DNA of 64,000 bases, taken from Octopus vulgaris. Taxonomy: Eukaryota. The stretch covers positions 13,144,001 through 13,208,000 of the forward strand of contig OX597819.1 of assembly GCA_951406725.2 (NCBI GenBank), read 5' to 3'. Positions within the stretch are counted from its first letter, which is position 1. Every line of letters begins with the position of its first letter. The notes beneath the pieces are model-generated. The model did not search any database. It had not been told where the DNA came from and worked only from the letters and a program-made list of their open reading frames with translations. This document shows positions 7,838 through 45,090 of this stretch, piece after piece. Made by a program: the position numbers and the translations under genes.

Positions 7838-7888
7838 TTTGCTAAAATATTTTCGTCACTTTGAGACCGTGACCTGTTCACTGACAAA
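7838..7888 (-). ncRNA. Minimal type-I hammerhead-like motif, G3-C8 core variant (repeat family F, ~7762-7890)
   Basis: Minus strand reads tttgtca GTGAACA g GTCAC ggtctcaaa GTGAC GAA A atat T T tagcaaa. Stem II is perfect, stem III is the palindrome AATATT, and stem I has one mismatch. Confidence 0.6.
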
Positions 7889-7952
7889 ATTCCGTGCTGT
7901 ATCATGGAATTAGATTGTTTTGTGATTATGATCATGATAATAATAATAATAT

Positions 7953-8141
7953 GCCTGAAATTTGGGGGAGGAGATAGTCAATTACATCGACCCCAGTACT
8001 CACCTGGTACTTATTTTATTGACACTGAAAGGATGAAAGGTAAAATCAACCTTGATGGAATTTGAACTCAGAACATAAAGATGGATGAAATGCTGCTAAC
8101 CACTTTGTTCAGTGTGCTAAGAATTCTGCCAGCTTGCCCCC

Positions 8142-8179
<38 letters not shown>

Positions 8180-8388
8180 CCTTTCTACTATAGGCACAAG
8201 GCCTGGATTTTTGTGGGGAGGGGGACAATCGATCACATTGACACCAGTACTTGACTCGTACTTAATTTATCGACCCACTAAAGGATGAAAATTGACCTCG
8301 GTGGAATTTGAACTCAGAACTTAGCAGCAGACGAAATACCGCTAAGCATTTTGCCTGGCATGCTAATGATTCTGCCAGCTCGCCACCT
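7953..8388 (-). mobile_element. Two SINE family B copies separated and flanked by (AAT)n
   Basis: Copies at ~7953-8142 and ~8180-8388 match the family B body. Confidence 0.8.
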
Positions 8389-8390
8389 TC

Positions 8391-8419
<29 letters not shown>

Positions 8420-8434
<15 letters not shown>

Positions 8435-9330
8435 TGATGAGCTTATTGTATGCAGTGTTCAGGTGCACCACAACTCATTACAAAAGGTTAAAAGAGGAAA
8501 CAGAAAGCAGACATAAGTAACAAAAGACAGTGATGAAAGCTAGAAATACCTGCACATTACACAGAATAGGGAACATTAAAACAGTCTTAAAGAGGAAAGG
8601 GTGCTTAAGTTTGTCAGGAATAAAGTTGGTGAATTTCAGGAAGCATGGAATCTTTGAAGGATGCAATGTCCTGACAACTAACAACTGATGTGGGTAGTTT
8701 GTTCTATGGTTTATTAATTCTAAGTGTGAAAAAATGTCTCTGAAAGTCTTGGGTGTTGTGCTGTTTTTTGTTAATTTTATACACCTGTGCAAGAGTGGTA
8801 GAGCTGTTGAATTCAAAATGATGGCCAAAGCTGTTATTGGAAAGATGGTGGATAATCCTTGTGTGCTTCTTCCAAGTCAGTTGCTCAATGCTGAAACTTT
8901 AATGTATTTGATGCCCAGAGAAGCAATACGTTCAGGGTATGGTGACTGACAGAAGATATTTGTCTGGTTGCACATCTCTGAACAGCTTCAAGTTTATTGA
9001 TATTGTGGACATGATGGGAGCAAGATAGGGGTTCCAGAGAAAAAATGCAATTTGTGTAGACATATCGTAGTGTCAAATATAACTTTAAATAGACAGCTGT
9101 TGGTTAGTAGTTGATAAAGATCTTAGTGATGCTGAGACACCTTGGGCATTTTTAATGATTTTAGAAATGTGGAATCTTCAAAACAGATCATTGTTGACAA
9201 TAATTCCTGGGTCACTTTCACCAGCAGATTTCTTGCAGTAACAGTTTTACTCAATTTTGATTCCAAGCAACGGACATTTCAGTTTGTTTCCAAAACCATG
9301 TCTTTGAGAAAAGTATGAATTCCATCATTT
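8420..9330 (-). mobile_element. Degraded CR1/L2-clade LINE 3' fragment
   Basis: Minus-strand peptides INKLEAVQRCATRQI and ..LRINKP*NKLP match CR1-type ORF2 C-terminal motifs (LE.VQRRAT, WN.LP). Many stops and frameshifts. Confidence 0.75.
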
Positions 9331-9756
9331 TCTCTCCTGTATATTTGTAACCTTTTTATCAGTTTAAGACAATTTTGTATTTCATGTTGTAACTGAGAAA
9401 GAAGCTGTGAGGAAGATGACTTTGAGAATAGATTTCAAATTTCATTTGTTGTTATTTTGTGTCTCTTTGCATTCACAATGTCTTTGGGAAAGGCATGATT
9501 GTCTCACAATTCCATTTCATCTTTCTATAAACAGAAAGCTTTATGCTTAAATTAGTATTCCTTCTAGTCTTAGAATATTCATTCAATGAAATTCTGTAGA
9601 GTTTAACTAGATTATTGATATACATCCAAGTTCAATTTAGGCAGGAGGTTAAGTTTGCTTCCATATTCCTCAGGGTTGATAAAATAAATAACACCAGTAA
9701 AATATTGTTGTCAATTTTGACCACCTGTATTTATTTATTTATTTCACTTTAGTATA

Positions 9757-10170
9757 GGCACAGGAGTGGCTGTATGGTAAGTAGCTTGCTTACCAACCAC
9801 ATGGTTCTGGGTTCAGTCCCACTGCGCCTTGGGCAAGTGTCTTCTACTATAGCCTCGGGCCGACCAAAGCCTTGTGAGTGGATTTGGTAGACGGAAACTG
9901 AAAGAAGCCTGTCGTATATATGTGTATATATGTATGTGTGTGTATATGCTTGTGTGTCTGTGTTTGTCTTGCCCATCATCACTTGACAACCGATGCTGGT
10001 GTGTTTACATCCCAGTAACTTAGCGATCAGGTAAAGGAGACCGATAGAATAAGTACTAGGCTTACAAAGAATAAGTCCTGGGGTCGATTTGCTCGACTGA
10101 GGGTGGTGCTCCAGCATGGCCACAGTCAAATAACTGAAACAAATAAGAGAGAGTAAGAGTAAAGAGAGTA
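9757..10170 (+). mobile_element. SINE family A
   Basis: Matches the family A consensus. Confidence 0.9.
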
Positions 10171-11291
10171 TTGGTCAAATTTTTTCAGGTTCATAATTCC
10201 CTTTTTCCTGAATGAAAAGCCATTCCTGAAACCCCAGTTTTGCTTCTCTCCTTGGCATATGAACTTAACCAAACATCACTGTTTACTTTCTGCCAGTGCC
10301 CCCACCCCCAACCATCAGTTTTCTTGGAGAATGATTTCTTATGGATGTCTTGTAGTTGTTTTAATGTTGACACTGTCTGAGTGTAAGCTTGGCCAAGGTG
10401 ACACCAATCTAGCAATGACATAAACGAAGTACACTCACATATTCAAGCACACCTACTTTTGATGTTTTCAGATAACGAAGTATGTTTTGAGATATAAATG
10501 CCGTTGGAGCATGATTATTTTTTAGCCCCCACTAAACCCTGACAAATGAGCTAACTTATAATCTTGGGTCTTCATACTGTGTGACCACATCGTGTTTAAT
10601 CCATTGTTTATCTAGGACTGCATTATCTAATGTCTTAGACACAATATTATTTGTGGGTGATTTAACTGCTATTTCTAGCTGGTCAAACAACCACATAGAC
10701 ACTCCTTCATTGGTTTGTGTTGTTGCTGAAGTAATATCACTTGTTCCAAGCTATAATCCTTGTTACTAACAAGTCGGCTAGGTTTCTCAACAGTAATCTA
10801 ATCACCCTAATCCTTTGTTGACATGATATCACTTACCTGAAACATTCCCTCATGCCTAATCTTGTAGTATTTACTGTTTGTCAAACTGAGAATTCTTCCT
10901 AAACCCTTTCAGAATGTAACAACCAAAGTCTCAGCGATTTAGCGTTTGTTTGTATTTTAGTTGTCATTTTTGTGTCAATTCGAATTTAAACCATTTTTAT
11001 ACTCAATCATGTCGTTAAACTATATTTTCCATGCTTTAAGCCTTCAAATGTTTTTTCACAAAATATATTTAACTTCTAAGTAGGATCTACGAGATCTAGA
11101 GGAAATGCAAAGAACTTTAAGCTCTTTCCAACATCAAAAGTGATTTCTTTATTCAGGAACTACATAGGGGTTACGTAGGGGTTTACATGAGAAGTATGTT
11201 CAGTAATGCTGTGTTTAGTAGTGAAAGTTAGTTAATGGATGAGACCTGGAAGAATTAACTGAGCTTATATGAGTTAAGAGCTGCAGCAGCT

Positions 11292-11675
11292 CTTTTATCT
11301 TTTACTGGTTTCAGTCATCCGACTATGGCCATGCTGGAGCACCACTCTGAAGCGTTTTAGTCAAACAAATCGACCCCAGTACTTGATTTTTTTAAAGCCT
11401 GGTAATTATTTTATTGGTCTCTTTTTGCTGAACCTCTAAGTTATGAGGACGTAAACACACCAGCACCAGTTGTCAAACAGTGGTGGTGATGGGGAGATAA
11501 CACACACACACACACACACACATATGACAGGCTTCTTTTAGTTTCAGTCTACCAAATCCACTCACAAGGCTTTGGTCAGCCCGAGGCTATAGTAGAAGAT
11601 AGATGCTCAAGGTGCCATGCAGTGAGACTGAACTCAGATACATGTGGTTGGGTAGCAAACGTCTCACCACAGCCA
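11292..11675 (-). mobile_element. SINE family A, older copy
   Basis: Diverged match to family A. Confidence 0.8.
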
Positions 11676-11902
11676 TTTTGTTAAACTTTTGCAGATCAAA
11701 TCTCCCTAAAAGACTGCATAAATATACTCCAACCACCATTGACAGGAGAAAAATAGCGAGTCTGATCAGAGAATATTTGATCGAACTTCATAAAGATGAT
11801 TAGTGACTGTATATGGTGAATGGTGGCATGATGTCCAACCTATGGCTACATGTTGGAAGGTTTTTAATCTGAGGTTCCTTGAATTAGGGAACCTCGGATT
11901 AT

Positions 11903-12134
11903 AAGGCGGCGAGCTGGCAGAAACGTTAGCACGCCGGGCGAAAAGCTAAGTGGTATTTCGTCTGCCGTTACGTTCTGAGTTCAAATTCCGCCGAGGTCGA
12001 CTTTGCCTTTCATCCTTTCGGGGTCGATAAATTAAGTACCAGTTACGCACTGGGGTCAATATAATCAACTTAATCCGTTTATCTGTCTTTGTTCGTCTCC
12101 TCTGTGTTTAGCCCCTTATGGGTAGTAAAGAAAT
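11903..12134 (+). mobile_element. SINE family B, young full-length copy with 18-bp TSD
   Basis: CpG-rich copy. aggttccttgaattaggg is duplicated at 11872-11889 and 12135-12152. Confidence 0.9.
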
Positions 12135-12445
12135 AGGTTCCTTGAATTAGGGCTTTCTTGAAGCTAAACAACAACTATGGTATATTAAAATTAACACTTG
12201 TGCTTCAGTGGTACTTTATCAGACTCTGAAACAGTAAAAGACAGTTGACTTGGACATGATTTGAACTCTGAATGTAAGGGGCTGGAGCAAAACTACAAGG
12301 CATTTTGTCCAACACCGTAACAATTCTGCCAATCTGTTGTAGAGGTAAGAAATATTGGTTTCAAATTTTAGCACAATGCCTGCAATTTTAGAGGGAGTGG
12401 AGGTTAGCTATTTACATTGACCCCAGTACTTGACTCTTTTATTAT

Positions 12446-12851
12446 ACTCTTTTATTACTTGTTTCAGTCATTTGACTGCGGCCATGCTGGAGCACCGCCT
12501 TTAGTCGAGCAAATCGACCCCGGGACTTATTCTTTGTAAGCCCAGTACTTATTCTATCGGTCTCTTTTGCCAAACCGCTAAGTGATGGGGACGTAAACAC
12601 ACCAGCATCGGTTGTCAAGCAATGCTAGGGGGACAAACACATACACACAAACATATACACACACACTTATATATATATACATATATACGACAGGCTTCTT
12701 TGAGTTTCCGTCTACCAAATCCACTCACAAGGCATTGGTCGGCCCGGGGCTATAGCAGAAGACACTTGCCCAAGATGCCACGCAGTGGGACTGAACCCGG
12801 AACCATGTGGTTGGTAAGCAAGCTACTTACCACACAGTCACTCCTGTGCCT
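12446..12851 (-). mobile_element. SINE family A, full length
   Basis: Matches the family A consensus. Confidence 0.9.
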
Positions 12852-14209
12852 GTTTACCTTTTTTTAACGGCCCTGGTACGATTAAAAACAAAATTGATCT
12901 CAGCAGGATTTGAACTCAGAATGTAAAGAACTGGAAGAAACACTGTTAAGCATCTTGTCCGATGCAGTTATTATTCTGCAAGCTTGCTGCTTTCAATGAT
13001 GGATAAGCCATTTTGTGTCCAAGAATAGAGACATATTATAAGCTTTAAGAACCATACTGTGGACAAGGGCACATACATAAAATTGCGTGTATGGAAAGGT
13101 GTTCCCTTTTTGTATATAAACTGCAGAAAACAATGCTACACCTTCACAAATTGGGACTTTTCTTTTCTTTTTACTCTGATGGTGGTCCATTTTCAAAGTG
13201 AAATGTCTGCCAAGTAAGACCTGTTGACTACTTGTAATCTTTTAATCTATTTTATCATCAACATGATGAGATGCTAACATCCTGTTCTACTTCTCCTGCA
13301 TCCTTTCCGCCCTCTCACTTCTTGTCTTTTATTATCTCAACAACCGTTTCTTTCTCTCTTCCTACAAGTTTGTAACTTCCAATTTTAAGCAATTCTTGGA
13401 AATAAATAAAATAAACAATACGGTGAACAAGAAAGAAGATTTCTTTGAAGTTTCATTAAAATATGAGGAACATCTTAAAGGAAGTTGTAAAAAGTCGTTC
13501 CATAAAAGTGTGCCTGTATCTGAATTGGGCGGCGGCGGCAGCAGAGGGACAACTCATTCTTCCTATCTTCCTCTCTTCCCCACCCACCATCATCATCACC
13601 ACCGCCCCCGCCACCTACGATATTCCTTTCCTTCCGCTTCTATGCCAAGTGACCAGCTCATCATCTCTGACTACAAACTCTTGTTTACCTATAAATACTA
13701 CCATTTCCGAATTATTTCTTCCTCCACAATATTCACACTTGTTTATTCATACAGCTGGTTTACATTTCGTCTCATTCAACTTCCCGTATTTTGTGTAAAT
13801 TTGTGTTGTTCAGACATGATTTCGCTGGAAGGCACACCTTTTTCACTTGCCTAGACACCTCGCCCCCCCACCTCCTAGTCCCACCAATTTCTTTGCTTTC
13901 GTCATTTCCCTCAGTTTTTTTCATCCATCCATCTGTTATTTTAATGAAAATGGCTGTTCAAGAAATTCTACTCTTATCAAAGTTTACACTGTATTATATT
14001 TGTATAGCAACGTCTGAGTGTCTGTTCCTGTTGTTGGAAACTGCCTGGACTTGTCAGCTTGGTTTTTTATTCCATTCACAAAATCAACTGAGCAAAAATA
14101 CATAAATTTGTCAAAGAAAAGGTTGAAATATTTCTGTATTTTAACACAGGTGTGTGAATGTATGTGTATACATGACTATATATATATACATATATACATA
14201 TATACATAT

Positions 14210-14263
<54 letters not shown>

Positions 14264-14348
14264 GGGTAGCGAATATTTCCAGAAATTTCACATCCAGTGG
14301 CCTACCATGTATAAAAAGTCAATAGACAACATATTCTCAATATACAAC

Positions 14349-14379
<31 letters not shown>

Positions 14380-14954
14380 TATATACATACACACACACAC
14401 ATTCACACAAATTTGGAACAAAATATATATGTATATATACACACACACACATTTACATATGCATAATGAAACATCTCTCTCTAAATATATATAAAGAGAG
14501 AAAGCACTTTAAAATTTTCTTGTCCTTCATACACAAACAGATGAACATACTATCATTTAATGCCTCTTTTCCATGCTGGCATGGGTTGGACAGTTTGACA
14601 GGATCCAACAAGCTGCAGGGCTGTGTCAAGCCCCTATGTCAGTTTTGGTATAGTTTCTATGACTGGATACACTTCAACCACTTCAAAGAATGTACTGGGT
14701 GCTTCTCTTCATGGTGCTGGTACCAGTGAAATCACCAACTTGCAAGAAAGCTCCTAACCTCACTGCAGTGGCTGTGTTATAAAAAGCTTGTTTTCCAACC
14801 ACATGGTTCTGGGTTCAGCCCCACTGTTTGGCACCTCAGGTGAGTGTCTTCTACTATGGTCCCATGCTGGCCAAAGCCTTGTGAGTGGATTTGATAGATG
14901 GAAACTGAAAGCTCATCATATATAATAATGTGTATATAATGCATGTTTATGAAG

Positions 14955-15190
14955 AGCAATGCTACATGGTAGTGAGATGTGGGCCCTGAATACAGAGGAC
15001 ATGTGAAGATTAGAGAGGAATGAAGGTAGTATATATAACAAAGTATTGATCACTTAAAGTGGATGGAACTTGTGGACTAGGGAGACCCAAGAAGACGTAG
15101 GATGAAGAATTGAGGGCCAATATCAAGCTGATGAGACTTACAAAGGAGATGACAAAGGATCAAGATATCTGGTACCTTGCTGTACTCAAG
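14955..15190 (+). mobile_element. Degraded RTE-clade LINE fragment
   Basis: Translates to AMLHGSEMWALNTEDM*RLERNE and GRPKKT*DE, typical RTE C-terminal motifs. Confidence 0.65.
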
Positions 15191-16539
15191 AATCGATATC
15201 CGAAAACCACCTTGGTAATGCTTATCCATGAAGGGCTCTGCTCCATCAACCGTTTCCCTTCCATAGATATTTCATCTAATACCCATCACTTCTTCCATCT
15301 CATGAGAGCAGAGTAGGCAATACTACATCCCCTGGCTTTTTCAGTTACCTTCCACCCCCAGTTACCTTTCTTCACCCCACCTATTATCTCCAATCCCCTC
15401 CTTTCTGCACCTTCTCCCTTACTCTCTATGCTGCTCTCCATCATCAACTCCTTGTGACTTGTGATCACCCTCAATGCCCTCACATATCTACTGCAACCTC
15501 CGCCCACAATCCATTAGAATTTTCTTGCTTTTTTGTTGTTTCATCTGCTTAGTTGTGAAGGCAGGCAGGGTCCATGTCTTGTTACAGAGTCTCTGAGAAT
15601 GGTGGCGGTGGTGGGGAGGAGGACGGTATCCTCAAAATGGAAATCTGGTGTCAAATGCTTGCAACAGAGTGGACTCCACTAAAGATACCCAAACTGCCTG
15701 ATGGTGGTGCTAAACTGGGCAATATGTTAAGGGCTACCACGCAAGTAGGCCATGGATGGATTTGCACTTAGAATGGAAAGTGCCTGAACAAACACCACAA
15801 GGGCATCTGGTTTGAGATTATTACAGTTCCAGCAATCAACCGCTTCAGATTGGTACTTTCTTTACTAACCTCTGAAAACGTGAAAGACCAAGGTAACCTC
15901 TATGGGATTTGAACTGTGATCTGATTGCAAAGACTTGAAACAAATGCCACAAAGCATTCTGTTTGATGCTGATGATTCTGATGAATGGTTAAGGAGGATT
16001 GCTTGGCAATCCTAAGGTTTCACTTCTATTGACTGACATCTAGGGCTAATGTCGTTTTCTAAAGTCTCAGAGAAACCCATACCCTATAAGTGGAACTCAG
16101 TATTTGGAAACTGTGTAGAAGTCTTATCATATGGCTGTAATCTAAGGGTGCATCTTTGTCACACAGGGTCACACATTGTGTCACGCTAGTTATATCTTGG
16201 CTTTACATTTACAGCTGGTCTTCCATTGTTGCAGTGTCCAAGATGTGAAGCCTTGGTCACCTTTAAAGACGATGGTTAATCACTGAAACATAGCAAGGGA
16301 GAGGATGGAGAACTCTTCTGTTTGCCTCTTTACTTCCTGACATCTCAACCATAAATGTCAGAAACTCTGCTCCTCACAGTGATATCATTTTACTACTATT
16401 ACTGTCATTTTTTGAAAAATAAAGTATCACTGATGTGTGTGTGTGTATAGGCACACACACACACACACACACACTAATAACTCTTTACATGTTTACAAAC
16501 AAATCATATCTAATCTGATAACTAACAACATGGTGTAAT

Positions 16540-16831: not shown

Positions 16832-16864
<33 letters not shown>

Positions 16865-16870
16865 CACCCA
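16540..16870. repeat. Compound (CT)n(CA)n minisatellite-like array
   Basis: Recurrent ccattttctctc(ac)n units. Confidence 0.85.
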
Positions 16871-17463: not shown

Positions 17464-17733
17464 GTTGTGTCTGGGGAAAGTCATTCTCTTTTGGTGCCAT
17501 TTATTCCTTTATTTTACTAAAATTTTCGTTGCGTCTTGCAACCTTTTCAAAACTAATGAAAAGGTTGCAAAATGCAACGAAAATTTTAGAAAAATAAAGA
17601 AGCAAATAAGTTGAAATTTTACTGGTGATCGTGTTAAATTATAAGTCACTAAAAGAGAATTACTCTCCCTAGACACAACAGAATATGCTTCAACACACGA
17701 ACTCACATAAAGAATCTTGCAAACCAAATCCCA
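17464..17733. mobile_element. Palindromic element in (TA)n carrying two divergent hammerhead-like motifs (U3-A8 type)
   Basis: Outer inverted repeat 17464-17498 / 17645-17679 and inner ~31-bp hairpin 17519-17587. A related fragment lies at ~42483-42555. Confidence 0.65.
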
Positions 17734-17839
17734 AAAATATATATATATATATATTTACACACACATACACACATATATATACATATATATAAATATATAT
17801 ATACATACACATACATATACGTATATACATATATATATT

Positions 17840-25591: not shown

Positions 25592-25931
25592 TAGAAAATA
25601 AAGACTACCATAATATTGCAAGGCATTTCAGTTTTTTGGTGGCAGTCATTTTATCCTCATTGGTGTTACACAATAGTAGGAAGGTAGGTTGATGTTAAAG
25701 TGAAAGGCAACCATACTAATAATAATGTTTCTGTTATTTTCTGCAAATATGAACTGTCACACAGAGAGGCTTCGGTAGGCCTGGGGCTATAGTGGAAGAC
25801 ACTTGACCAAGGTGCTATGTGATGGGATTTGAACCTGAACATATGTGGTTGGGAAACCAACTTCTTAACCACACAACCGTGCCTGCAACTCTGCCCTTTT
25901 AATATCCCACCTTTTAGATCAAACCACCATT

Positions 25932-25981
25932 CTGTCAGCGAACAGGTCGCAGTCTCAAACCGACAAAAATATTTTGGCAAA
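25932..25981 (+). ncRNA. Degenerate second copy of the G3-C8 hammerhead-like motif (family F, ~25932-26110)
   Basis: ctgtca GCGAACA g GTCGC agtctcaaa CCGAC AAA A atat T T tggcaaa. U4 and G12 are mutated. Downstream sequence matches 7762-7840 in reverse. Confidence 0.45.
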
Positions 25982-27099
25982 TTTAAATGTTGAAGTGAAC
26001 CTAACAGTTTTTGTGTTTTTAAATGGCTTATAAACACCTTCCATGCTGCAATTGTTTTTGTTTCAGCACACGATCTCAGATCAGGTCACTTGTTATGCAA
26101 GTACATCTGTGTAGTTTTATTATTTAGTCAAAAATGATTTGCAGTATATTTGGTTTGCTATTTATGCAAATACAACTGTTCTCTGCACATTTGAAAAAAG
26201 ACAGGATGGTCATGGCTTGACAACCCATGCTAGCATGGAAAGTGGACGTTAAACGATGATGATGATATATATACGTATATGTATATTTGTGTGTATGAGT
26301 ATAATCATCATCGTTTTACGTACACTTCCCCTGTTGGCATGGGTTGGACGGTTTGACTGAGGACTGTCAAGCCAGAAGGCTGCACCAGGTTTCTACAGCT
26401 TGATGCCCTTCTTAACGCCAACCACTCCAAGAGTGTAGTAGGTGCTTTTTACATGCTACCAACACGAGAGCCAGTCAGGCAGCACTGGTAACAACTGCAC
26501 TCGAATGGTGCTTTTTACGTGCCACCAGCACATGTATTAAAATTAATCAATTATATACATACATAATATAACCACATAATGATAATATAATTTAGGAAAC
26601 ATCACTCTAATTTGTGATTTTCCAAAGTTATAGACTATAATCATTATTATTATTGTCCACATTTTTCTAATCAAAACAATGCCTATTTGACTTATTAGCC
26701 ATTTGTTATTGGTGGCTGTTTGTGATTTAGCTATGAGTTTTAGTAGGAACACCAACCAGCTGTTTTTGATTTTATTATTAAAATTAATCTATCTTTTGCA
26801 ATTACAAGCCCAAAGGTCTATAAACGACAAGACCATTGCAGCCCCTAATCTTGTACCAGACTCCTAAATAAATGATCACAGATAATCTCAGTTACTTTTC
26901 AGTTAGATTGTTATTCTGTTTTTGATTACCAAATGATTAAAAGTTGATGTGTAACAGTTTTAATGTTATATTACACAAAAGTAGATGTTTTACTCAACTT
27001 GAAGGAGTTGTTCTAGATACATCATCATCATCATCATCATCATTTGTAACTTGTACTTTTCCATCTTTGCATGGGTCTGACAAGTGTATGTCAGGGCAG

Positions 27100-27521
27100 T
27101 TTCTTATTTCTTTATTGCCCACAAGGGGCTAAACCTAGATGGGACAAACAAGGACAGACAAAGGGGTAAAGTCGATTACATCGACCCCAGTGCATAACTG
27201 GTACTTAATTTATCGACCCCGAAAGGATGAAAGGCAAAGTCGACTTCGGCGGAATTTGAACTCAGAATGTAATGGCAGACAAAATACCTATTTCTTTATT
27301 ACCCACAAGGCGCTAAACACAGAGGGGACAAACAAGGACAGACATAGGTATTAAGTCGATTATATCGACCCCAGTGCATAACTGGTACTTAATTTATTGA
27401 CCCCGAAAGGATGAAAGGCAAAGTCGACTTCGGCCGAATTTCAACTCAGAATGTAGTGGCAGACAAAATACCGCTAAGCATTTCGCACAGTGTGCTAACG
27501 GTTCTGCCAGCTCGTCGCCTT
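27100..27521 (-). mobile_element. SINE family B dimer
   Basis: Full copy followed in sense by a head-less copy starting at ggtatt. Confidence 0.85.
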
Positions 27522-28218
27522 TATGTCAGAGCAGTTTCTACAGCTGGATGCCCTTCCTGTCAGCATCACCCTCATTTTCAAGTGAGCTAATAATCCCCCA
27601 CCCCCACCACATCTGTTGAACAACAAAGCTCAGACATGTTTTATGCAGAAAACAAGAATCAACGGATGCCGAGTTGTTTGTTTACAATGATTGCACAACT
27701 TGTCCAGGTATCTCAAGAAGACTGGACATGCTTTTGTGGTGGACTCTCAGCAAATGACACTGGCAGGAGGAAGCCATGGTAAACAAACCAGCAAAAACAA
27801 GAGAAATATGAACTGACACACAGACAGGCTTGGACAGGCCTGGGGCTATAGTGGAAGACACTTGTCCAATGTGCTATGTGTGGGGTTTGAACCTGAACAT
27901 ATGTATTGTTTGCCAACATAACATGGCAGTCCTTGTTTAGGATGAATCTTGCTGTAATTTAACCCCAGGTGACATCATCTCCAGCTAGCTATATGACATG
28001 ATCTGTGCCCTTATATTTTCAAACAAGGGAATCTAGCACACCCACTCAGCTCAAAACAATATCTCTGTATTGCGATTTCCGGGTTATTTCCCTTCATCAG
28101 CACAGAATAATTGTTTGGCTAGAGGTGGCGCTGCCAAATTCCCATTTGAAATATATAGTTTTCAAAGTGACAACTAGTCACTGATCTACAGATTTACAAA
28201 TAATTTTCTGAATGTATA

Positions 28219-36177: not shown

Positions 36178-36572
36178 ATATTCTTTTCTATTCTAAGCAC
36201 AAGGCCTAAATTTTTTGGGGAGGAAACCAGTCGATTAGATTGACCCCAGTACACAACAGGTACTTAATTTATCGACCTTAAAAGGATGAAAGACAAAGTC
36301 GACCTTGGCGGAATTTGAACTCAGAATGTAAAGACAGACGAAATACCTATTTCTTTACTGCCCACAAGGGGCTAAACACAGATAGGACAAACAAGGACAG
36401 ACAAACGGGATTAAGTCGATTATATTGATCCCAGTGCATAACTGGTACTTATTAATCGACCCCGAAAGGATAAGTCGACCTCGGCGGAATTTGAACTCAG
36501 AACATAGCGGCAGACGAAATACCGCTAAGCATTTTGCCCGGCGTGCTAACGTTTCTGCCGGCTTGCCGCCTT
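36178..36572 (-). mobile_element. SINE family B dimer (two tail variants)
   Basis: Junction gacgaaatacc|tatttcttt at ~36347. Confidence 0.85.
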
Positions 36573-36674
36573 TAATAACTAATATATTCTTTTCTACTCT
36601 AGGCACAAGGCCTGAAATTTTTGGGGAGGGCGCCAACTAATTAGATTGACCCCAGTACACAATAGGTACTTAAT

Positions 36675-36913
36675 TTACACTATTTACATTTGACGGATAT
36701 TTGTTCTCATCTTGTTTGTTGTTAACACATTTTGGCTGATATACCCTCCAGTCTTCATCAGGTGTCTTGGGGAAATTTCAAACCTAGGTTCTCATTCCTG
36801 AGGTATTTTTTGATATTATTATTATTATTATTATCATTCAGGTCACTGCCTGGAATCGAACTTGGAATCTTGGGGTTGGTAGCCCACGCTCTTAACCATT
36901 ATGCCATATGCCC
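36675..36913 (-). mobile_element. tRNA-headed element with internal hammerhead-like motif (family I), inserted in a SINE B
   Basis: Minus strand has A-box TGGCATAATGG, B-box GTTCGATTC and an (AAT)n linker, then acac CTGATGA a GACTG gagggtatat CAGCC AAAA t gtgt. Second copy at 44945-45090. Confidence 0.75.
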
Positions 36914-37928
36914 ATGATGAAAGGCAAAACTAACCTTGGCAGAATTTGAACTCAGAATGTAAAGACAGACGAAATACCACTAAGAATTTCGCCTGGCATG
37001 CTAACGTTTCTGCCAGCTTGCCATTAAGTTAAAGAATTTTGCATAAGAAGTTTGATTAAAATGTGTAGAGGACAGGGAGTGAATAGTGAAAACCTATGTT
37101 GTTTAAACATATTCTTTCCTCAATGTTTTTGGGGTATTTTTTTAGTTTTTTTTCCACTAAGAGACACATTGCAATGCAACTGTATTGATATGTCTTGTCG
37201 GCCGACACATTGCTCTTAATGTTAGACTGACTTGAGACTTTTGGTAGACTGACCTTACTATGTTATGTTGATATAATAATGTTTTAAACACTTACATTTA
37301 CCCCCACTTTGCTAAGTTATGCTGACATATGAAGATAACAATGTTGTTTGATGCTGATAAATCCTACATTAAACGGTTATAGACTACTGATGTGAGATTC
37401 TGTTTATTTTGTGCAACTCTTTAGAGGGTGCTTGTGTGTGTGTGTATTAAGAGGGAATATACACACAATGTATCAATCATTTGGAGAACTGAAGGTTACT
37501 AACTGAGAGTCCATTATGAAGAAATACAAGTTCACTTTGGACCAGATGGTTAAGTGATCGGGGAAACCACATCACACTAAAACAACAACCAATTAACACA
37601 AGCCAGGTTGACCTGATCTACTAGTAGTAGTAGTAGTAGTAGTAGTAGTAGCAGCAGTAGTAAGTGGTGGGAAAGAGGGAGTGATGGGGGGTAGTAATAG
37701 TATAAGAATAGTAGTAGTAAGAACCCTTCTGGTTTTATTTTATTTCTTCCCCACCCCTAACATGGTCTAGAGAAAGAAGGGAAGTGCCTTTAGTATTTTG
37801 CAGGCTTTCTAAAAGTTTGTGTCAAGGAAGGAAGCCATAACTCCTGGGCCGCTGCTATAGGATGTGAATTAGCAACATTTTGAACTTCTTCCCAGACTGG
37901 ATGACCTGACCGAAAGGCTTGCGTCAGA

Positions 37929-37960
37929 ATGGACTTTGCTAATAATAAGAGTCTGCAAAA
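37929..37960 (+). CDS. Candidate first coding segment of the RhoGEF gene (MDFANNKSLQK), within putative exon 37804-37960
   Basis: Acceptor tattttgcag (37802-03) and donor AA|GTAAGA (37960/61). ATG at 37929 has A at -3 and G at +4, with an in-frame stop upstream at 37902. The phase-2 end is compatible with the microexon. Confidence 0.55.
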
Positions 37961-38978
37961 GTAAGATGGTTAAATTGAGCATGGGGGTGGGGTGAGCCTT
38001 ATCATTATAAGAGTTGTTAGGGTTCTGAGAAATCCCTTTCTTACATATGCCTACTTTACAAGAACAACACTCCCTTATAGAAAAAAACGTGATAGAAAGG
38101 GTAACAACTCTAAGAAAGCATATCCATTGACAGAGGGAGCTGGAGCTTGATCAGCAAAAGAGACAGAGTAAAGTTTGAAGAGTTTGAACCTGTATTAAGC
38201 AATGATATGATAAAAGAAGTCACAGGTATTAGTGGCTAAAAGAAGAGACCTTTGTGGATATGGAACCAGAGTGTACTTTTGGCTCCCATGCCAGTGGCAT
38301 GTAAAAAGCATCATTTGAGCTTGGTTGATGACTGGGTCCCAAGCTGGTGGTACATAAAAAGCACCATTCAAGCATGGTCGATGCCAATACTGCCCCTCGT
38401 GCTGGCGGCACATAAAAAGCACCCACTACATTCTTGGAGTGGTTGGCGTTACGAAGGGCATCTAGCTGTAGAAACCTTGCCAGAACAGATTGGATCCTGG
38501 TGCAGCCTTCTGGCTTGCTAGTCCTCAGTCAAACTGTCCAATCCATGCCAGCATAGAAAGCAGACATTAAACAATGATGATGATGATGATGAAGTCGTCA
38601 TTTAGAGTGGACAGATCACCAGCAGATTTGTTATTGTATTTACAGAAAAAAAAGAAGAGAAAAAATACCTTCCCAAATTCACCATTCTTGATAAACATTT
38701 CAGCAGCAAAAAAATGGTGTACAAGCCATGATGTTAAGTAAAGGAAAAAAAAAAAACCCAATAAAATATTGGTTTCACATTTTGGCACAAGGCCAGTCAT
38801 TTCGGGGGTGAGAGTAAGTCAATGACATCAACCCCAGTACTCAACTGGTACTTATTTTATTGGCTCTGAAAGGGTAAAAGGCAAAGTTGACCATAGAAGA
38901 ATTTGAACTCAGAACGTAAAGGTGGACAAAATGTTGCCCAGTGTGCTAACAGTTCTGCCAGCTGTCTTTAGGAAAGGT

Positions 38979-39428
38979 AAAATATTCTTTTCTACTCTAG
39001 GCACAAGCCTGAAATTTTGGGGGAGGGGACCAGTCAATTAGATCGACTCCAGTACACAACTGGTACTTAATTCATTGACCCCCAAAAGGATGAAAGGCAA
39101 AGTTGACCTCAATGTAAGAAATAGTAAAATATTCTTTCCTACTCTAGCCACAAGGCCCAAATTTTAGGGGAGGGGGCCAGTCGATTAGATTGACTCCAGT
39201 ACACAACTGGTACTTAATTTATTGACCCCCGAAAGGATGAAAAGCAAAGTCAACCTCGGTGAAAGAAATGGTAAAATATTCTTTTCTACTCTAGGCACAA
39301 TGCCCGAAATTTTAGGGGCAGGGGGCCAGTTGATTAGATTGACACCAGTATGCAACTGGTACTTAATTTATTAACCCCAAAAGGATGAAATGCAAAGTCA
39401 ACCTTGGTGGAAGAAACAGTGAAATATT
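38979..39428 (-). repeat. Tandem array, 3 x ~147 bp, of the SINE B 3' half
   Basis: aaaatattcttt(t/c)ctactctagg/cc recurs at ~38979, 39125 and 39273. Confidence 0.85.
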
Positions 39429-40199
39429 ACATGAAGACACTGTTACTGTCTGCCTAACCTCACTGGTGTCACTCCAAAGATGTGTAAAATATAGGAGGTG
39501 TTTCTGACACCATTTCATGTTGTAAACTTTCTGATGTAATCAGTAATATGAAATTCTAAGTCTTATCTAGATAAGACACAGCCTACCTGTAATGAGGTTG
39601 ATGTCACAGGTGAGGCTGCACATGATCAGCAGAGGAAAGGAGAGATAATATTACAAATGTGGGGAGAGGATGGAGTTTGTGAGATTGTGGAATGACATGG
39701 GATGGGATAGTAATTATATAAACGAAATAAAGGATTATTAAATATTAATGATCAGGCAGGTGGTCATTATAGTAAAACCTACGAATAAAGAATAAATATT
39801 ATAAAGTAAAAAATAGATCATTTTTTAAAATTATTTTTGAGAGAAGAGGAGGGAAACAGCTGCCTTGTTTTGTTATGACTGTCTCTGTGGAAATATTTGT
39901 ATAGATGCAGGTGGGATTAAGTAGTTAGGTATAATTAGTAAATATTAATTATGTAAATATATATAAGATAAGATTGATGTAAGACACTTTGTAACCACAT
40001 GGGTTTTCATTCAATTCTATCATTTGGCACATTTAACAAGATTCTTCTAGCTTTGGTTCAACCAAAGGAAGCCATTAGAATAAAACTGAGTGGATAGAAA
40101 CTGTGCTGAAGCTTGTTGAATTGGTACATTCCTTTTCTTGGATATTGGCTGTGAATTGGTAGAATTGGTAGAGCATCAGATAAAATGGTTAGTCCACAT

Positions 40200-40428
40200 T
40201 ACTCCATAAGGATCAAAGGGCTAGTTTCTTGATTTCTTTGACACATAAACTCCTCCCTGGCAATGGCACCAGTCTGTCAGAGGATTCCTCCTGTTTTCCA
40301 GCTGAGTGGAGCAACGTGAAATGAAGTGTTTTACTCAAAAATATAGCACATTGCCTGGTCCAAGAATTGAAACCACATTCATATGATCATGAGTCCAACG
40401 CCCTAACCACTTAGCCATGTGGCTCCAC
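40200..40428 (-). mobile_element. Old tRNA-derived SINE (head related to 49311-49613)
   Basis: Minus head gtggagccacatggctaagtggttagggcgttggactc..gtttcaattc. Confidence 0.65.
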
Positions 40429-43292
40429 TTTAGATAAAATACCTTTTGTTGTTTGTTCTGGCTCTTTACATCCTGAGTTCAAATCCTACCAAGATCAAAT
40501 TTGGTCTTCATCCTTTTGAGATCAATAAAGTTTCAATCACGTACTGAAGTCAATTTAATCAATTAAGCGTCTCCCACAAATCTTGGGCTTTGTTTCTATT
40601 CTAGGGACCCAATATCATCAACTGCCATGAATGGTTCATTGGTAGAATTGGTAAGGCATTCTGGAAGGAATTCATTTATTTATTGAGAGAGTGAGAGGGC
40701 AACAATGATAGACGTAGAATGACAAATAATTTGGTAGATTCTAACTATTTGAAATCTGTAAAAGAAATTATTCTGGACAAAATGAACATTGAAGAAAGCT
40801 GATTTTGTCATAGACCCCCACCTTTTTTATCTGGATTCCTTGCATATGTTTCAATAGTTTGAGCCAAAGATTCCAGTTAATTTCTTCAAATCTTCACAAG
40901 GTGTACATAAACATCCACCTGATAATCACTGCCATTATTATTAATTTCACAGTTTTTTTTCCTTATTTTCTTGTAGGTTTCCGATATAAAGTTATTACTA
41001 ACTTCTGATATATATATAAAGCACATACATACCAACATATTTACACCACAACCACACTACCCTTGTCAGGTTTCTTATAAACCAAATAACATTCAAAAGT
41101 CAGTGAGAGAGTTAGTATGTGGTCACTCAACTCTCTAGAAATAGCAGCAAATTCCCTCACATTGCTCCCAACTGTCTTGACAAATTTGGTAATGCACTCC
41201 TGGATATGCCATGCCTGAAAGAACTAGTTGGTCATGGCTTGCCTGCCTATGTAATCATCTCCCTTTCACAGCTGACCAGATCCAGGCTCTCACACCTACC
41301 CTACAATGTTATTCTACATTAAGTAATTACACCATCAAGATCTTGAAGGTATGAGATAATGCATGATTAATTCAAATCAATGGGAATCAACAGGCATTAT
41401 GTTTGATAGAATAATCAGAACACTAAAGGGTTAAAAGTTCATCTAATTAATATAATCAGTTATTCAATGAATAAACTTTTTTTACAAGCCACTGGTGGAG
41501 CATTTATGCAGCTATTTGACCTACAAGAAATAGCATTCAAATCTCCCTCATGTCGCACCCTAAGAAAGAAAAAAAAAACCCACAATAGATAATTATTGTA
41601 TCTTTTGTTTTCTGACACCTTATCAGGGGAAAAAGCCAAAACGGTCTCATGCTCAGCCATTAATTACATGTTGGACTTAAAGTTAACTTGTCTCTTCTCT
41701 AATGTATAATTACATCTTGTCTAAAAGACGTGGAATATCTGATGCTCTTTCATTACCCCCCCCTGACCAACACAACTCAATATTCTTTTACAGAATTCTA
41801 TATTTGTGATGTCTTTTTTTCTTTCGTTTTTTTTTTTTTTTTTTGAAATACCATCTTTTTACACAACACCGTTAAATATTACTCTGATGCCAAAATCTTA
41901 TAGAATTACACATTTTTATATACTTAATCCCATCTAGCAGACTCTAAGAACAACATAACACCTATTTTACACAAACATCACTGCCACCACCATCACCTTT
42001 AAAAGAATAGTGGATGAAATTCCTAGCAACATTTAGTTATGGACCTTTATGTTCTGAGTTCAAATTTTGCTATGGTCACATTCTGGGGTACGAATCAAGT
42101 AATGAAGATTTAATAGACTTGACTAATACTTTAATTCCACTAATGTCTGGCCTTGTGTCTCAGTAAGGAATCATTATTAGAAGATCTGTGAATTAAAAGA
42201 ATTATTAGAGCATTAGATAAAGTACTCTGCAATAGTGAGTTACAGCTCTCTACATTCTGAGTTCAAATTCTGCCATGGTCAACTTGGTTTTTTATTCTTT
42301 CAGGATCAATAGAATAGAGTACTGGTGAAGTACTGGAGTTGATGTGATAATCTAATCCCTCCCTACAAATTTTTGACCTCGTGTCTGGTATAAGTAAGCA
42401 TCAACACCCTAATTATCATTAAATCCATACAGCCGTGCTTGTACCACACACACACACACACACACATGCATGCATCATTTTTGTATTTGGTTTGCAAGAT
42501 TCTTGATGGGAATTTGTGTATTGAAACAAATCTGTGTCTTGAGAGGGTCATTGCACCAATAATAATAATAAGACATGCTCTGAATCAATATCACCTCTTT
42601 ATTGTTAGTCTATTGGTTAAATATCTAACTAACTAATCGAGACTCAGGGTGGTCTTTGAAGAGAGGAGGTAGGCCATTGATGAAAGTTTGTGAATAGTGA
42701 CAAAAGGGCTTTGACTGACAAACAAATGATTGATTGTTTAACCAGCACATTGAACAAACAATCCATTAGTTATTTGGTTGGATGTTTAACCAGTTGACTA
42801 ACAATAAAGAAGTGATATTGAACCTGCGGGTGTTATTATTATTGACATAATAAACCTCCCAAGATACAAGATATATAGGTGTGGCTATGTGATAAAAAGC
42901 CTGTTTCTCAACCACACAGTTCCAGGTTCAGTCCTACTGCATGGCACCTTGGGAAAGTGTCTTCTACTATAATCCTGGGCTGACCAAAGCCTTGGGAGTG
43001 GATTTTGGTAGATGGAAACAGAAAGAATCTTCATGTGTGTGAGTGTGTGAATGTTTGTGTCTCTTTGTCTTGACTTCCTGTGACAGAAGTTAAATGATTG
43101 ACACTGTCATAGAAGCAGTGCCATTCATTTCCAATATTGTGTGCGGGTAGGGCATGCCTGGCCATGGGGAAATATTTCCTTATGTGGGAACAGATGAGGG
43201 TTGGCGACAGGAAGAGCAGCCAGTCAGCAAATCTGCTTCAATAAACTCTGTCCAATTCATTCTGGCATAAAAAGAAATTGTGTTGATATGAA

Positions 43293-43635
43293 AGACTTTT
43301 ACGGATTCCATGGACAGCGAGGCTCACCAATGGAGAAGTTCTTAACCAGATCAAGCCGAAACTGTCGCTAGAAGCTAGGATAACCAAGCATAGATTGGCA
43401 TATTTTGGTCATATTATGCGGAGAAAATCCCTGGAGAAGGACATCATGCTCGGAATGGTCAGTGGCAAGAGAGGAAGAGGCCGACCAAGAACCCGCTGGC
43501 TTGACACCATCAAGAGTGACACGGGAATGGCCATAGCCAATCTGAAAGAAGCAACCCAGGATAGAACTGGCTGGAGGACACTGATCCATCGAGTAACCAA
43601 AAGTCGACTTCGATTGAACGGATACATAGATAGAT
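43293..43635 (+). mobile_element. 5'-truncated RTE-clade (BovB-like) LINE 3' end
   Basis: Stop-free frame RLLRIPWTAR.TN.EVL...RLAYFGHIMRRKSLEKDIMLG.V.GKR.RGRPRTRWLD..K...QDR.GWR.LIHRVTKSR, followed by a short (ATAG)n tail. Confidence 0.9.
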
Positions 43636-44094
43636 CGCAAATACGAAAGAATTAAATTTTGAATACAGAGTATTATATAAATGGACTTATTTATATTTTT
43701 ATAACCTGGCCACTGTTGTTTCAACAAAGTGAATAATCTCTGTGCATCAGAAAGAGTGGAGAAGGAAGTTGGTGAGAGAGAGAATAAACCAAGTTTGGAT
43801 AAACATTGCAGTTGAACAAATCTGGCAGTTCTCTATTCCACTCAGCTGGTTCCACCTCAACAGAATATTAATACTACAGTTTATTAAAACAGTAAATAAA
43901 ATTATTAATTCCTATGAACTTTATGGTGTCTCTTGTCTTACTCCCCTCCTCTGCAATAAAAAGATTGTTTATAGAATTATGTGCAGAAGCTACAGTGTGA
44001 CATTGGCCACTTGCTCCTAATTGGATTCAAGCAACAAAGGCTTGGAGTCTGCATGTGTTTGTGTAAGTGATGTGTGTGTTATTAAATAAAATTT

Positions 44095-44097
<3 letters not shown>

Positions 44098-44147
<50 letters not shown>
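44098..44147. repeat. (AG)n microsatellite
   Basis: Directly visible. Confidence 0.95.
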
Positions 44148-44627
44148 TGAGCAGTTATTAGCAAACTGTAGAAAGAAACAGGGAATGCTTTATCTCATCT
44201 TTGGAGATGGCAGAGGCAAGAGAATGTAGGAAAGTGATAAGCAAATTCTTGGCAAACATTAAATTAAAATAAGCATTTCTTGGTTAGCATGGCTGCATCT
44301 AATTGAAGTTTTGGTGGGGGTGGTACAGGGTGGCAACATACTTAGATGGGGGGGAGGCAAAGGAACATGGACATGCCCTGATAATAGTAATGTTGTTCCT
44401 TGGTGTTGGAGGTGGGGGTGATACAGTCTGGGTCCCTGCCATCTCCAGTGATCAGCTGATCACAGGAATGTTTCACAGTACAGGTTGTATTGAGTGCATA
44501 AAGCTATATTTATTGAGGGTGAGTGGTGTGGCTATGTGGTTAACAAGTCTCTTTCCCAACCATTTGGTTTTCAGTTCAATCCCACTATAGAGTACCTTCA
44601 GCAAGTGTCTTCTATGATAGCCCCAGG

Positions 44628-44783
44628 CAGGGGCAGACTGAGAGTATTAAGGGCCCTCGGGCATAACTGTTTACTGGGCCCCTTAGCATTGATATCAATA
44701 GAGTTAATATGTAGAGTGCAGAGCCCTCAGAATGCTGGGCCCTCAGGCAGAGCCCAGCTGAATGATGGCTCAGTCTGCCCCTG
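44628..44783. mobile_element. 156-bp hAT-type MITE inserted in an old SINE A
   Basis: 15-bp perfect TIRs CAGGGGCAGACTGAG / CTCAGTCTGCCCCTG and an 8-bp TSD gccccagg / gccctagg. Confidence 0.85.
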
Positions 44784-44944
44784 GCCCTAGGCCATCTAAA
44801 AGCCGTGGGAATGGATTTGGTATGTGGAAACTGAAGAAGTGTTTCGACTGGAAAAAATATAGTCAGGTACTTTTTGAACACACCTCATATATAGTTCTAC
44901 ATTTAGAGATGAGGAATTATGTACATTATTTGCATTATTTACAT

Positions 44945-45090
44945 TATGACGCAGTGGTTAAGAGCGCAGGCTACTAACCCCAAGATTCCGAGTTCGATTC
45001 CACGCAGTGACTTGAATACTAATAAAAATAGCATAGAAAAATACCTTAGGAATGAGAACCCAGGTTTGAAATTTCCCCAAGACACCTGAA
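44945..45090 (+). mobile_element. Second copy of family I (tRNA head), truncated inside the hammerhead core
   Basis: Aligns to 36758-36910 in reverse and ends at gacacCTGAA. Confidence 0.75.

What the first reader, a model, noticed from the sequence alone, without database searches (positions are those of the whole stretch)
7838..45090. Several unrelated small repeat families each carry a minimal hammerhead fold, together showing all three 3-8 core pairings
Seen: the architecture stem I - core(3-9) - one extra purine - stem II - GAAA - short palindromic stem III - UH - stem I' is approximated in unrelated repeats. The cores are CUGAUGA (36755-36761 -, 28094-28100 -), GUGAACA (7875-7881 -, decayed at 25938-25944 +) and UUGAAAA (17544-17550 -). 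Positions 3 and 8 co-vary as C-G, G-C and U-A. Established: C3-G8 is a tertiary Watson-Crick pair in the active hammerhead that tolerates compensatory swaps. Minimal type-I hammerheads with palindromic stem III are typical of Penelope-like elements and are thought to work as dimers. Inference: this genome hosts a radiation of short non-coding ribozyme-bearing retroelements, many of which a CUGANGA-only search would miss. Every copy here has at least one defect.
Basis: partly seen in the sequence, partly recalled or inferred. Interest (0 to 1): 0.85.

Follow-up and report, generated by a model that had tools for sequence, protein, structure and literature searches.

The report
Penelope hammerheads with swapped core pair
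The short repeats are real: two of the four families are end-pieces of Penelope-like jumping genes carrying a predicted self-cutting hammerhead RNA, and three related lineages in this genome hold three different letter pairs at one catalytic-core contact, which likely means selection keeps that contact.

Summary
Observation confirmed at family level. The window's own copies are all damaged and fail a strict descriptor, but genome copies give intact minimal type-I hammerheads: G3-C8 (1434 exact copies, about 40% passengers of one insertion), U3-A8 (1431) and two C3-G8 families. 'Unrelated' is wrong for the two variant families. They are homologous pseudo-LTRs (pLTRs) of related Penelope-like elements (PLEs) and run into RT + GIY-YIG ORFs; one G3-C8 element keeps a 1025-aa open frame. 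A third, young relative has C3-G8. Across this clade the 3-8 pair and stems I and II change in compensating pairs. The copies show PLE insertion marks: two 3' ends about 60 nt apart, head-to-head pairs with one long end, and TA-repeat flanks. They are most likely reverse transcripts of the PLE 5' leader, not independent retroelements. One C3-G8 family is a SINE-like repeat with a tRNA-like head; the other is a 353-nt partly tandem repeat. Minimal PLE hammerheads and U3-A8 are published. I found no natural G3-C8 in four searches, but two key papers were unreadable. Cleavage and expression are untested. Verdict: new variant of a known kind, interest 0.45.

The parts
7757..7904 (-). Family G solo pLTR copy (short 3' end, no tail), beginning at the family's sharp 5' boundary
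7838..7888 (-). G3-C8 minimal hammerhead: stem I 7888-7882 with 7844-7838 (one C-A mismatch), core GUGAACA 7881-7875, extra G, 5-bp stem II, GAA, palindrome AAUAUU, U17
   Evidence: intact family copies fold into stems I and II as the minimum-energy structure
25929..26118 (+). Family G copy with long 3' end (tail); decayed core at 25938-25944 (U4C, G12A, broken stem II)
17464..17550 (-). Family U left arm of a head-to-head pair; core UUGAAAA 17550-17544, stems II and III intact, 5' strand of stem I lost at the junction, internal deletion, short end into a TA repeat
17551..17737 (+). Family U right arm with tail (start of the PLE ORF); core at 17556-17562 carries U3A
27905..28194 (-). Family C2, part of a 353-nt unit; core CUGAUGA 28100-28094, 3-bp stem II plus an extra G, 8-nt palindrome (broken here), 6-bp stem I
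36663..36913 (-). Family C1: tRNA-like head (A- and B-box-like), (AAT)n, then a C3-G8 minimal hammerhead (core 36761-36755; here G12A and a stem III deletion) and a PLE-type 3' end
44888..45089 (.). Second C1 insertion: inverted 3' piece (44888-44951, -) joined to a head that breaks off inside the core (to 45089, +)
42475..42552 (-). 3' fragment of family U without the hammerhead

Best explanation
The G3-C8 and U3-A8 repeats are the pLTR plus first codons of two related Penelope-like retrotransposons, likely copied into thousands of short insertions when the element's reverse transcriptase primes just inside the ORF and runs to the RNA's 5' end, and their hammerheads are predicted to cut weakly, as dimers or with the element's protein. 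SHOWN: the units run in frame into PLE ORFs and also follow such ORFs; the G, U and young Y lineages hold G-C, U-A and C-G at the same place 92-135 nt before the start codon; stems covary; copies end at two sites about 30 and 90 nt into the ORF; head-to-head pairs usually have one short and one long end; TA repeats are favoured. INFERRED: the two 3' ends are the two RT start sites; priming from both nicked target strands gives the head-to-head pairs; the sharp 5' boundary is the RNA's start (the extra G fits a copied cap; a tiny spliced first exon is the alternative); most solo copies are dead on arrival; the 3-8 pair was restored by selection in the autonomous lineage, since C-G to G-C needs two changes with a mismatched intermediate. 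The two C3-G8 families likely use PLE machinery in trans: C1 as a SINE with a tRNA-like head, C2 as a retrozyme-like tandem unit. Their partners were not found.
For: PLE link: L244 has a 1025-aa open frame with C-terminal GIY-YIG (Pfam PF01541, E 1.8e-5, above cut-off; nearest Atlas clusters are RT-domain proteins), then a 3' UTR and an intact G3-C8 motif. L018 holds ORF end, UTR, motif and an inverted copy. L193, L224, L225, L227 and L228 run from the G unit into the ORF start; L234 and L242 do so for U; L239 and L245 are the two ends of one 1311-aa Y element, each with the motif. N-terminal peptides align. Covariation: 3-8 pair UA:5, GC:3, CG:2 with none unpaired; all 4 stem I pairs and 2 of 5 stem II pairs show double changes; 84% and 100% of cells paired, 0 of 500 shuffles as high, slid controls lower. 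Two G subfamilies differ at 5 of 9 loop II positions, 2 of 42 core and stem positions (both still pair) and 6 of 96 elsewhere. Ends: 39 of 44 G 3' ends fall in two clusters; 10 of 13 G and 12 of 18 U head-to-head pairs have one short and one long end; TA-repeat flank in 18 of 42 and 21 of 53 against 825 of 8000 background. 5' ends (my hand count of the first 100 of 1000 matches): 82 lack the upstream sequence, 58 of those 82 have G at -1, and 26 of the 34 ending in AG have G where the template has C. PMC11167929 (passages): internal RT start at two sites that define the tail, both target strands extended, C3G/G8C partly rescues cleavage in a PLE hammerhead, and cleavage needs the protein.
Against: No cleavage or expression data were obtained. 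The covariation alignments hold only 9-10 copies from about 5 subfamilies that I chose, so cells are not independent events. Family U has only a 3-bp stem I, and about 47 of the first 100 U matches do continue upstream (hand count), so its 5' boundary is less sharp. Some of the G-at-minus-3 cases could be templated by the inverted arm. In G the boundary also has a branch-point-like ACUAAC, a pyrimidine tract and YAG in both subfamilies, which favours splicing over a start site; U has no such tract. The youngest lineage Y has A9C and an imperfect palindrome, and a G subfamily with a core deletion is present in 12 of 30 long-form loci, so an intact core is not required for spread. PMC11167929 found cleavage dispensable for insertion in vitro and no RNA-seq read ends at the cut site. 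No tree was built. No autonomous partner was found for C1 or C2.
Confidence: 0.72

Rival explanations
1. The families are independent, self-propagating non-coding ribozyme retroelements (retrozyme-like): multimeric transcripts self-cleave to monomers, circularise and are reinserted by a PLE RT.
For: C2 occurs as 352-353-nt tandems in 3 of 30 loci. C1 has its own tRNA-like head in 20 of 39 copies and a tandem array in L105. bioRxiv 10.64898/2026.07.22.740005 (abstract, methods and passages) derives retrozymes from pLTRs. Solo copies far outnumber ORF-bearing ones.
Against: G and U copies are solo or head-to-head, not tandem. They are not circularly permuted at the cut site, they end inside the ORF start, and they match the pLTR of ORF-bearing elements. 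The one G structure with a fixed junction and many copies (607) is a passenger in a 2.2-kb composite repeat with identical flanks in 7 of 7 fetched copies.
Confidence: 0.12
2. The fold is kept for a non-catalytic job (binding the PLE protein, promoter or splicing control, RNA dimerisation). G3-C8 and the Y variant do not cut at a useful rate, and the 3-8 covariation reflects fold stability or drift through a tolerated mismatch.
For: Low or protein-dependent activity is reported for PLE hammerheads (PMC4209133; PMC11167929). The young Y lineage has A9C, U has a 3-bp stem I, C2 lacks a pair next to G12, and a core-deleted G subfamily exists.
Against: U4, G5, A6, G12, A13, A14 and U16.1 are kept across G, U and Y while loops turn over. 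The 3-8 pair is a feature of the catalytically active conformation (my knowledge; PMC3088659 passage), and a purely structural role would not need it.
Confidence: 0.13
3. The motifs are chance matches in AT-rich hairpin repeats or MITEs.
For: Window copies fail the strict descriptor and most do not fold better than shuffles (z -0.03 to -2.1). The 17544 site lies in a long palindrome.
Against: 0 hits in 100 shuffles of the window, 4 in 20 shuffles of 400 kb, a fixed position in PLE pLTRs and compensatory changes.
Confidence: 0.02

Closest known systems
Minimal hammerheads (min-HHR) of metazoan Penelope-like elements, including the U3-A8 variant of Schistosoma mansoni (PMC4209133; read parts 1-2 of 4 and searched 2 of 3 supplements)
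   Same: Type I, extra nucleotide between 9 and 10.1, G10.1-C11.1, palindromic stem III, pLTR location, mostly solo or on opposite strands, several families per genome, about 1,300 U3-A8 hits reported.
   Different: No G3-C8 family in the text I read; here G-C, U-A and C-G sit in homologous pLTRs of one clade, with stem covariation. Octopus has no mention in the supplements searched.
PAc (Poseidon, Anolis) hammerhead and internal RT initiation (PMC11167929; passages)
   Same: Hammerhead near the ORF start; two RT start sites inside the ORF define the tail; AT-rich targets; engineered C3G/G8C partly active.
   Different: G3-C8 is natural here; the tail is about 60 nt rather than 30-40; the core lies 92-135 nt before the start codon; copies stop at a sharp 5' boundary just upstream of stem I.
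Drosophila virilis Penelope pLTR with 5' UTR intron (PMC2377424 passages; PMC4209133)
   Same: A splice-acceptor-like signal ends just before the hammerhead in family G.
   Different: Genomic Penelope copies are described as keeping the intron; here 82 of the first 100 G matches begin at the acceptor-like site. Splicing is not shown here.
Non-LTR retrozymes (PMC7229834 passages; bioRxiv 10.64898/2026.07.22.740005)
   Same: C2 and the array in L151 are about 350-nt tandem units with type-I hammerheads.
   Different: G and U are not tandem; circular RNA is untested; C2 lacks the pair next to G12.
Schistosome SINE-like elements with a hammerhead (review PMC6765202, section 11 part 2)
   Same: C1 joins a polymerase III-type head to a hammerhead.
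   Different: C1 carries a minimal PLE-type motif and a PLE-type two-ended tail; its partner is unknown.

Membership tests
PLE minimal hammerhead (min-HHR) | Core 3-9, GAAA and UH, with a Watson-Crick 3-8 pair | tested here: met
   Family majorities of G, U, C1 and C2; the window copies at 25938 and 36755 do not meet it
PLE minimal hammerhead (min-HHR) | Extra nucleotide between 9 and 10.1 | tested here: met
   G in G (37 of 38) and U (50 of 52); A in C1 (50 of 50) and C2 (38 of 38)
PLE minimal hammerhead (min-HHR) | G10.1-C11.1 closing stem II next to G12 (families G, U, C1) | tested here: met
PLE minimal hammerhead (min-HHR) | G10.1-C11.1 closing stem II next to G12 (family C2) | tested here: not met
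   3-bp stem with an extra G before GAAA (29 of 38), or an A-G apposition; C2 works like one but is atypical
PLE minimal hammerhead (min-HHR) | Palindromic stem III that allows a dimer | tested here: met
   AAUAUU, AAUU, ACGU and AUCGCGAU (C1 and C2 samples are split because the queries were damaged); imperfect in Y
PLE minimal hammerhead (min-HHR) | Stem I of about 4-5 bp | tested here: inconclusive
   G 7, C2 6, C1 5, U only 3; a 2-bp helix I is described for D. virilis
PLE minimal hammerhead (min-HHR) | Self-cleavage as a dimer or with protein | not testable with these tools
   Needs a bench assay
Penelope-like element (EN+) | Single ORF with RT and C-terminal GIY-YIG (partners of G, U, Y) | tested here: met
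   L244, 1025 aa, GIY-YIG at 915-1005; RT by Atlas neighbours and motifs (Pfam RVT_1 itself did not hit); for U only the ORF's first 35 codons were seen
Penelope-like element (EN+) | pLTR with the motif on both sides of the ORF | tested here: met
   G: 5' in L193, L225, L227, L228 and 3' in L244, L018 (different copies); Y: both ends of one element, L239 and L245
Penelope-like element (EN+) | Tail at one end and an inverted 5'-truncated copy | tested here: met
   definition from PMC8557442 passages
Penelope-like element (EN+) | Spliceosomal intron in the pLTR | tested here: inconclusive
   Acceptor-like signal in G only; a donor-like GUGAGA 270-390 nt upstream in L018 and L214; no RNA data
Penelope-like element (EN+) | Autonomous partner for C1 and C2 | tested here: inconclusive
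   No match in 30 GIY-YIG loci and no PLE protein in their 60 loci; the search was shallow
Neptune/Nematis clade | CX2-5CxxC linker before the endonuclease and RT phylogeny | tested here: inconclusive
   The linker is readable in L244 and L245; no tree was built
Non-LTR retrozyme | Head-to-tail tandem units, each with a hammerhead (families G, U) | tested here: not met
   Solo or head-to-head in 60 loci
Non-LTR retrozyme | Head-to-tail tandem units (family C2) | tested here: inconclusive
   Tandem in 3 of 30 loci, inverted in 4 of 30
Non-LTR retrozyme | Circular RNA intermediate | not tested
   No reads were laid
tRNA-derived SINE (C1) | tRNA-like head with A and B boxes | tested here: inconclusive
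   Box-like strings in 20 of 39 copies (box consensus recalled); ARAGORN finds 0 genes in 6 loci

The most novel reading that the evidence does not exclude
An autonomous PLE lineage fixed a natural, active G3-C8 hammerhead by a compensatory double change, while its sisters hold U3-A8 and C3-G8: an evolutionary proof that cleavage by PLE hammerheads is selected although insertion in vitro does not need it. The thousands of solo copies are cDNAs of the capped or spliced 5' leader, a built-in route by which internal priming spawns short ribozyme repeats, and one such 3' end gained a tRNA head and became a PLE-driven SINE.
Probability: 0.4. Interest if true: 0.65.

Novelty: new variant of a known kind. 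Interest (0 to 1): 0.45.

Why it matters
Whether the weak hammerheads of animal PLEs really cut, and why, is open: cleavage was dispensable for insertion in the one reconstituted system (PMC11167929). A clade in which the tertiary 3-8 pair takes three Watson-Crick forms at one homologous site, with matching ORFs in the same genome, is a ready-made natural mutagenesis set for testing this. It also shows that CUGANGA-only surveys miss families of about 1,000 copies or more, and that such 'SINE-like' unknown repeats can be PLE leader fragments.

Tried and rejected
Rfam at E up to 10 listed no hammerhead family among the 150 of 176 matches shown. Sequencing-run search: no RNA holder on record was listed, and no reads were laid, so expression, splicing and cut ends stay open. 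The 607-copy fixed junction looked like a self-propagating palindrome but is a passenger of a larger repeat. The GIY-YIG ORF upstream of G in L191 belongs to another PLE type and is separated by unrelated sequence, so I did not use it as a link. The upstream flank of L038 is not the U long form. A PDB sequence search for the 1025-aa protein gave 0 hits. Pfam on seven broken ORF pieces gave only a sub-threshold GIY-YIG. One search used a structure string that was one column off and is void; replace it. Dimer cofolding was only 1.9-8.4 kcal/mol better than two monomers and often in another register, so it is not used as evidence. I looked for a shared first exon in the 5' flanks; only 4-6-nt matches in a few copies turned up. 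Literature: natural G3-C8 was sought; only engineered uses appeared (PMC3884650 and PMC11167929 passages; PMC8495972 seen as a listing only). Lunse et al. (PMC5785218) and Arkhipova et al. 2017 (PMC5850863) are not held and could well list it, as could supplement 1 of PMC4209133, which was not searchable. An Octopus vulgaris repeat annotation (PMC13282606, passages) has 0 mentions of hammerhead or ribozyme.
Full report
Setting. The window is G000:C6:13144001-13208000 in a 2.8-Gb, 227-contig genome, 30-42% GC and rich in microsatellites and short repeats. It looks like an octopus genome; this is my inference from recalled repeat types and size, not a test. I call the families G (7875, 25938), U (17544), C2 (28094) and C1 (36755, 45089).

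Observation. From the window alone nothing follows: a strict descriptor (Watson-Crick 3-8, stem II of 4 or more, GAAA, palindrome, UH, stem I of 3 or more) has 0 hits in the window and 0 in 100 shuffles, and Rfam showed no hammerhead among the 150 of 176 matches listed. I took the 30 best loci per family. G3-C8 holds in 35 of 38 aligned copies and 29 of 38 are intact in core, stem II and stem III. U3-A8 holds in 46 of 52, and 35 of 52 are intact. C1 and C2 keep C3-G8, but only 6 of 50 and 7 of 38 are intact, partly because the damaged queries pulled in like-damaged copies (one G locus is counted twice). Exact whole-genome patterns give 1434 G copies (core through stem III) and 1431 U copies (5' half), controls 0. 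Of 60 G copies taken in order along chromosome 1 (60 of the first 61 listed), 24 share one inverted junction; it occurs 607 times inside a 2.2-kb composite repeat with the same flanks in 7 of 7 fetched copies. Independent intact G insertions are therefore nearer 800-900 (inference). In 400 kb of unselected genome the strict descriptor found 10 Watson-Crick hits (8 C-G, 2 U-A, no G-C) against 4 hits of any pair in 20 shuffles.

The families are not all unrelated. G and U align over their length (local score 126; shuffles 70.7 +/- 6.7, 0 of 300 as high), whereas the other five pairs do not beat their shuffles. Walking upstream of G gave long forms. L193 runs from the motif into a broken PLE ORF; L018 holds the ORF's end, about 1.1 kb of UTR, the motif and an inverted copy. 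A search with the ORF's N-terminus gave 142 matches. Of 20 upstream stretches fetched, G copies (L224, L225, L227, L228) and U copies (L234, L242) run into the start codon, and a young family Y with 1311-aa frames has a related motif at the same place; several others were truncated or rearranged. L244 has a 1025-aa open frame with a C-terminal GIY-YIG domain, RT-domain neighbours in the Atlas and an intact G3-C8 motif after its UTR. The cores lie 92, 103 and 135 nt before the start codon in G, U and Y, and the first 35 residues align, U closer to Y than to G. A separate young PLE with 781-aa frames also uses U3-A8 (sense hit in 12 of 30 GIY-YIG loci).

Covariation. In natural copies from G, U and Y the 3-8 pair is U-A in 5, G-C in 3 and C-G in 2, never unpaired. 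All four stem I pairs counted and two of five stem II pairs change on both sides. 84% and 100% of cells pair, with 0 of 500 shuffles as high and all slid controls lower. These are 9-10 hand-picked rows from about five subfamilies, so the number of independent events is small. Two G subfamilies differ at 5 of 9 loop II positions but 2 of 42 core and stem positions, both still pairing, and 6 of 96 elsewhere. Intact G and U copies fold into stems I and II as the minimum-energy structure (z -1.4 to -2.7). Against strict conservation: Y has A9C and an imperfect palindrome, U has a 3-bp stem I, C2 has no pair next to G12, and a core-deleted G subfamily fills 12 of 30 long-form loci.

How the short copies arise. 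39 of 44 G 3' ends fall near +147 or +207, that is about 30 and 90 nt into the ORF; U shows the same two clusters. Of the head-to-head pairs, 10 of 13 (G) and 12 of 18 (U) have one short and one long end. TA repeats flank 18 of 42 and 21 of 53 ends against 10% background. PMC8557442 (passages) describes the inverted copy and one-sided tail as PLE marks. PMC11167929 (passages) shows that RT starts at two sites inside the ORF, that both target strands are extended, that cleavage needs the protein and is not needed for insertion, and that C3G/G8C partly rescues. The 5' ends are sharp. Setting the 24 passengers aside, 1 of 36 G copies extends upstream, 11 begin at -3 to -1, and the other 24 begin between +2 and +22. 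By my hand count of the first 100 of 1000 matches with an intact start, 82 lack the upstream sequence, 58 of these have G at -1, and 26 of the 34 ending in AG have G where the template has C (binomial test, uncorrected for cases templated by an inverted arm). For U about 47 of 100 continue upstream. I read the boundary as the RNA's 5' end, with a copied cap as the extra G. The alternative is a spliced leader with a first exon of a few bases: G has a branch-point-like ACUAAC, a pyrimidine tract and YAG there and a donor-like GUGAGA 270-390 nt upstream, but U has no tract and no shared exon was found. Either way the solo copies are best read as cDNAs of the PLE leader. No RNA data were obtained.

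The canonical-core families. C1 has a tRNA-like head in 20 of 39 copies (ARAGORN 0 genes in 6 loci), then (AAT)n and the motif; 49 of 53 3' ends fall in two clusters about 35 nt apart (the upper cluster is capped by my reference's end). It is likely a SINE moved by a PLE. C2 is a 353-nt unit, tandem in 3 and inverted in 4 of 30 loci, like a non-LTR retrozyme. No partner was found for either.

What is known. PMC4209133 (parts 1-2 of 4 read) describes minimal PLE hammerheads, the extra nucleotide, the palindrome, their mostly solo occurrence, low activity, and about 1,300 U3-A8 hits in S. mansoni. PMC3088659 (passages) reports natural U3-A8. Searches for a natural G3-C8 returned only engineered variants, but the two papers most likely to list one were not held. 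Earlier scan notes flag single G3-C8 candidates in other genomes (unchecked).

Verdict. Real and largely of a known kind. What is added is a natural high-copy G3-C8 family tied to an ORF-bearing PLE, all three pairs in one homologous clade, and a leader-cDNA origin for the solo copies. New variant of a known kind; interest 0.45.

Noticed in passing
L238-L241, L245 (e.g. G000:C9:33146628-33152600): Young PLE family Y with many 1311-aa open frames; its hammerhead has C3-G8 but A9C and an imperfect stem III palindrome at both pLTRs.
   Followed up: partly
L127-L147: Another young PLE family (781-aa frames, GIY-YIG) with a U3-A8 hammerhead, no extra nucleotide and a 6-nt palindrome, 450-950 nt after the endonuclease.
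   Followed up: partly
L306-L312 (G000:C3:26609651-26612400): A 2.2-kb composite repeat, sometimes tandem, carries one head-to-head G insertion to 607 places; part of it resembles a Helitron-type non-autonomous element (resemblance recalled, not tested).
   Followed up: partly
L194-L198, L200, L203, L206-L209, L218: G subfamily with a 3-nt core deletion and an internally deleted ORF; several copies lie near chromosome ends and share long flanks.
   Followed up: partly
L151:3082-4560 and the opposite strand: Canonical non-LTR retrozyme array, 353-359-nt units, 7 intact C3-G8 hammerheads.
   Followed up: no
L158:8151, L160:5072, L139: A further U3-A8 family with a 6-nt palindrome whose 10.1-11.1 pair switches A-U to G-C between copies.
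   Followed up: no
L034:1110-1226: A relative of family U with core UUGAGAA and a changed stem I, as a head-to-head pair.
   Followed up: partly
L036:2701, L089:405: More C3-G8 minimal hammerhead families with 4-bp stem II and ACGU palindrome.
   Followed up: no
window 27105-27472, 38977-39428, 50506-51162, 61937-62746: Tandem arrays of 184, 147, 217 and 202-nt units, the first three from an abundant SINE-like family; no strict hammerhead hit.
   Followed up: no
window 53648-53790: Long hairpin formed by two inverted copies of a repeat end around a microsatellite; its sub-threshold miRNA match is not meaningful.
   Followed up: no
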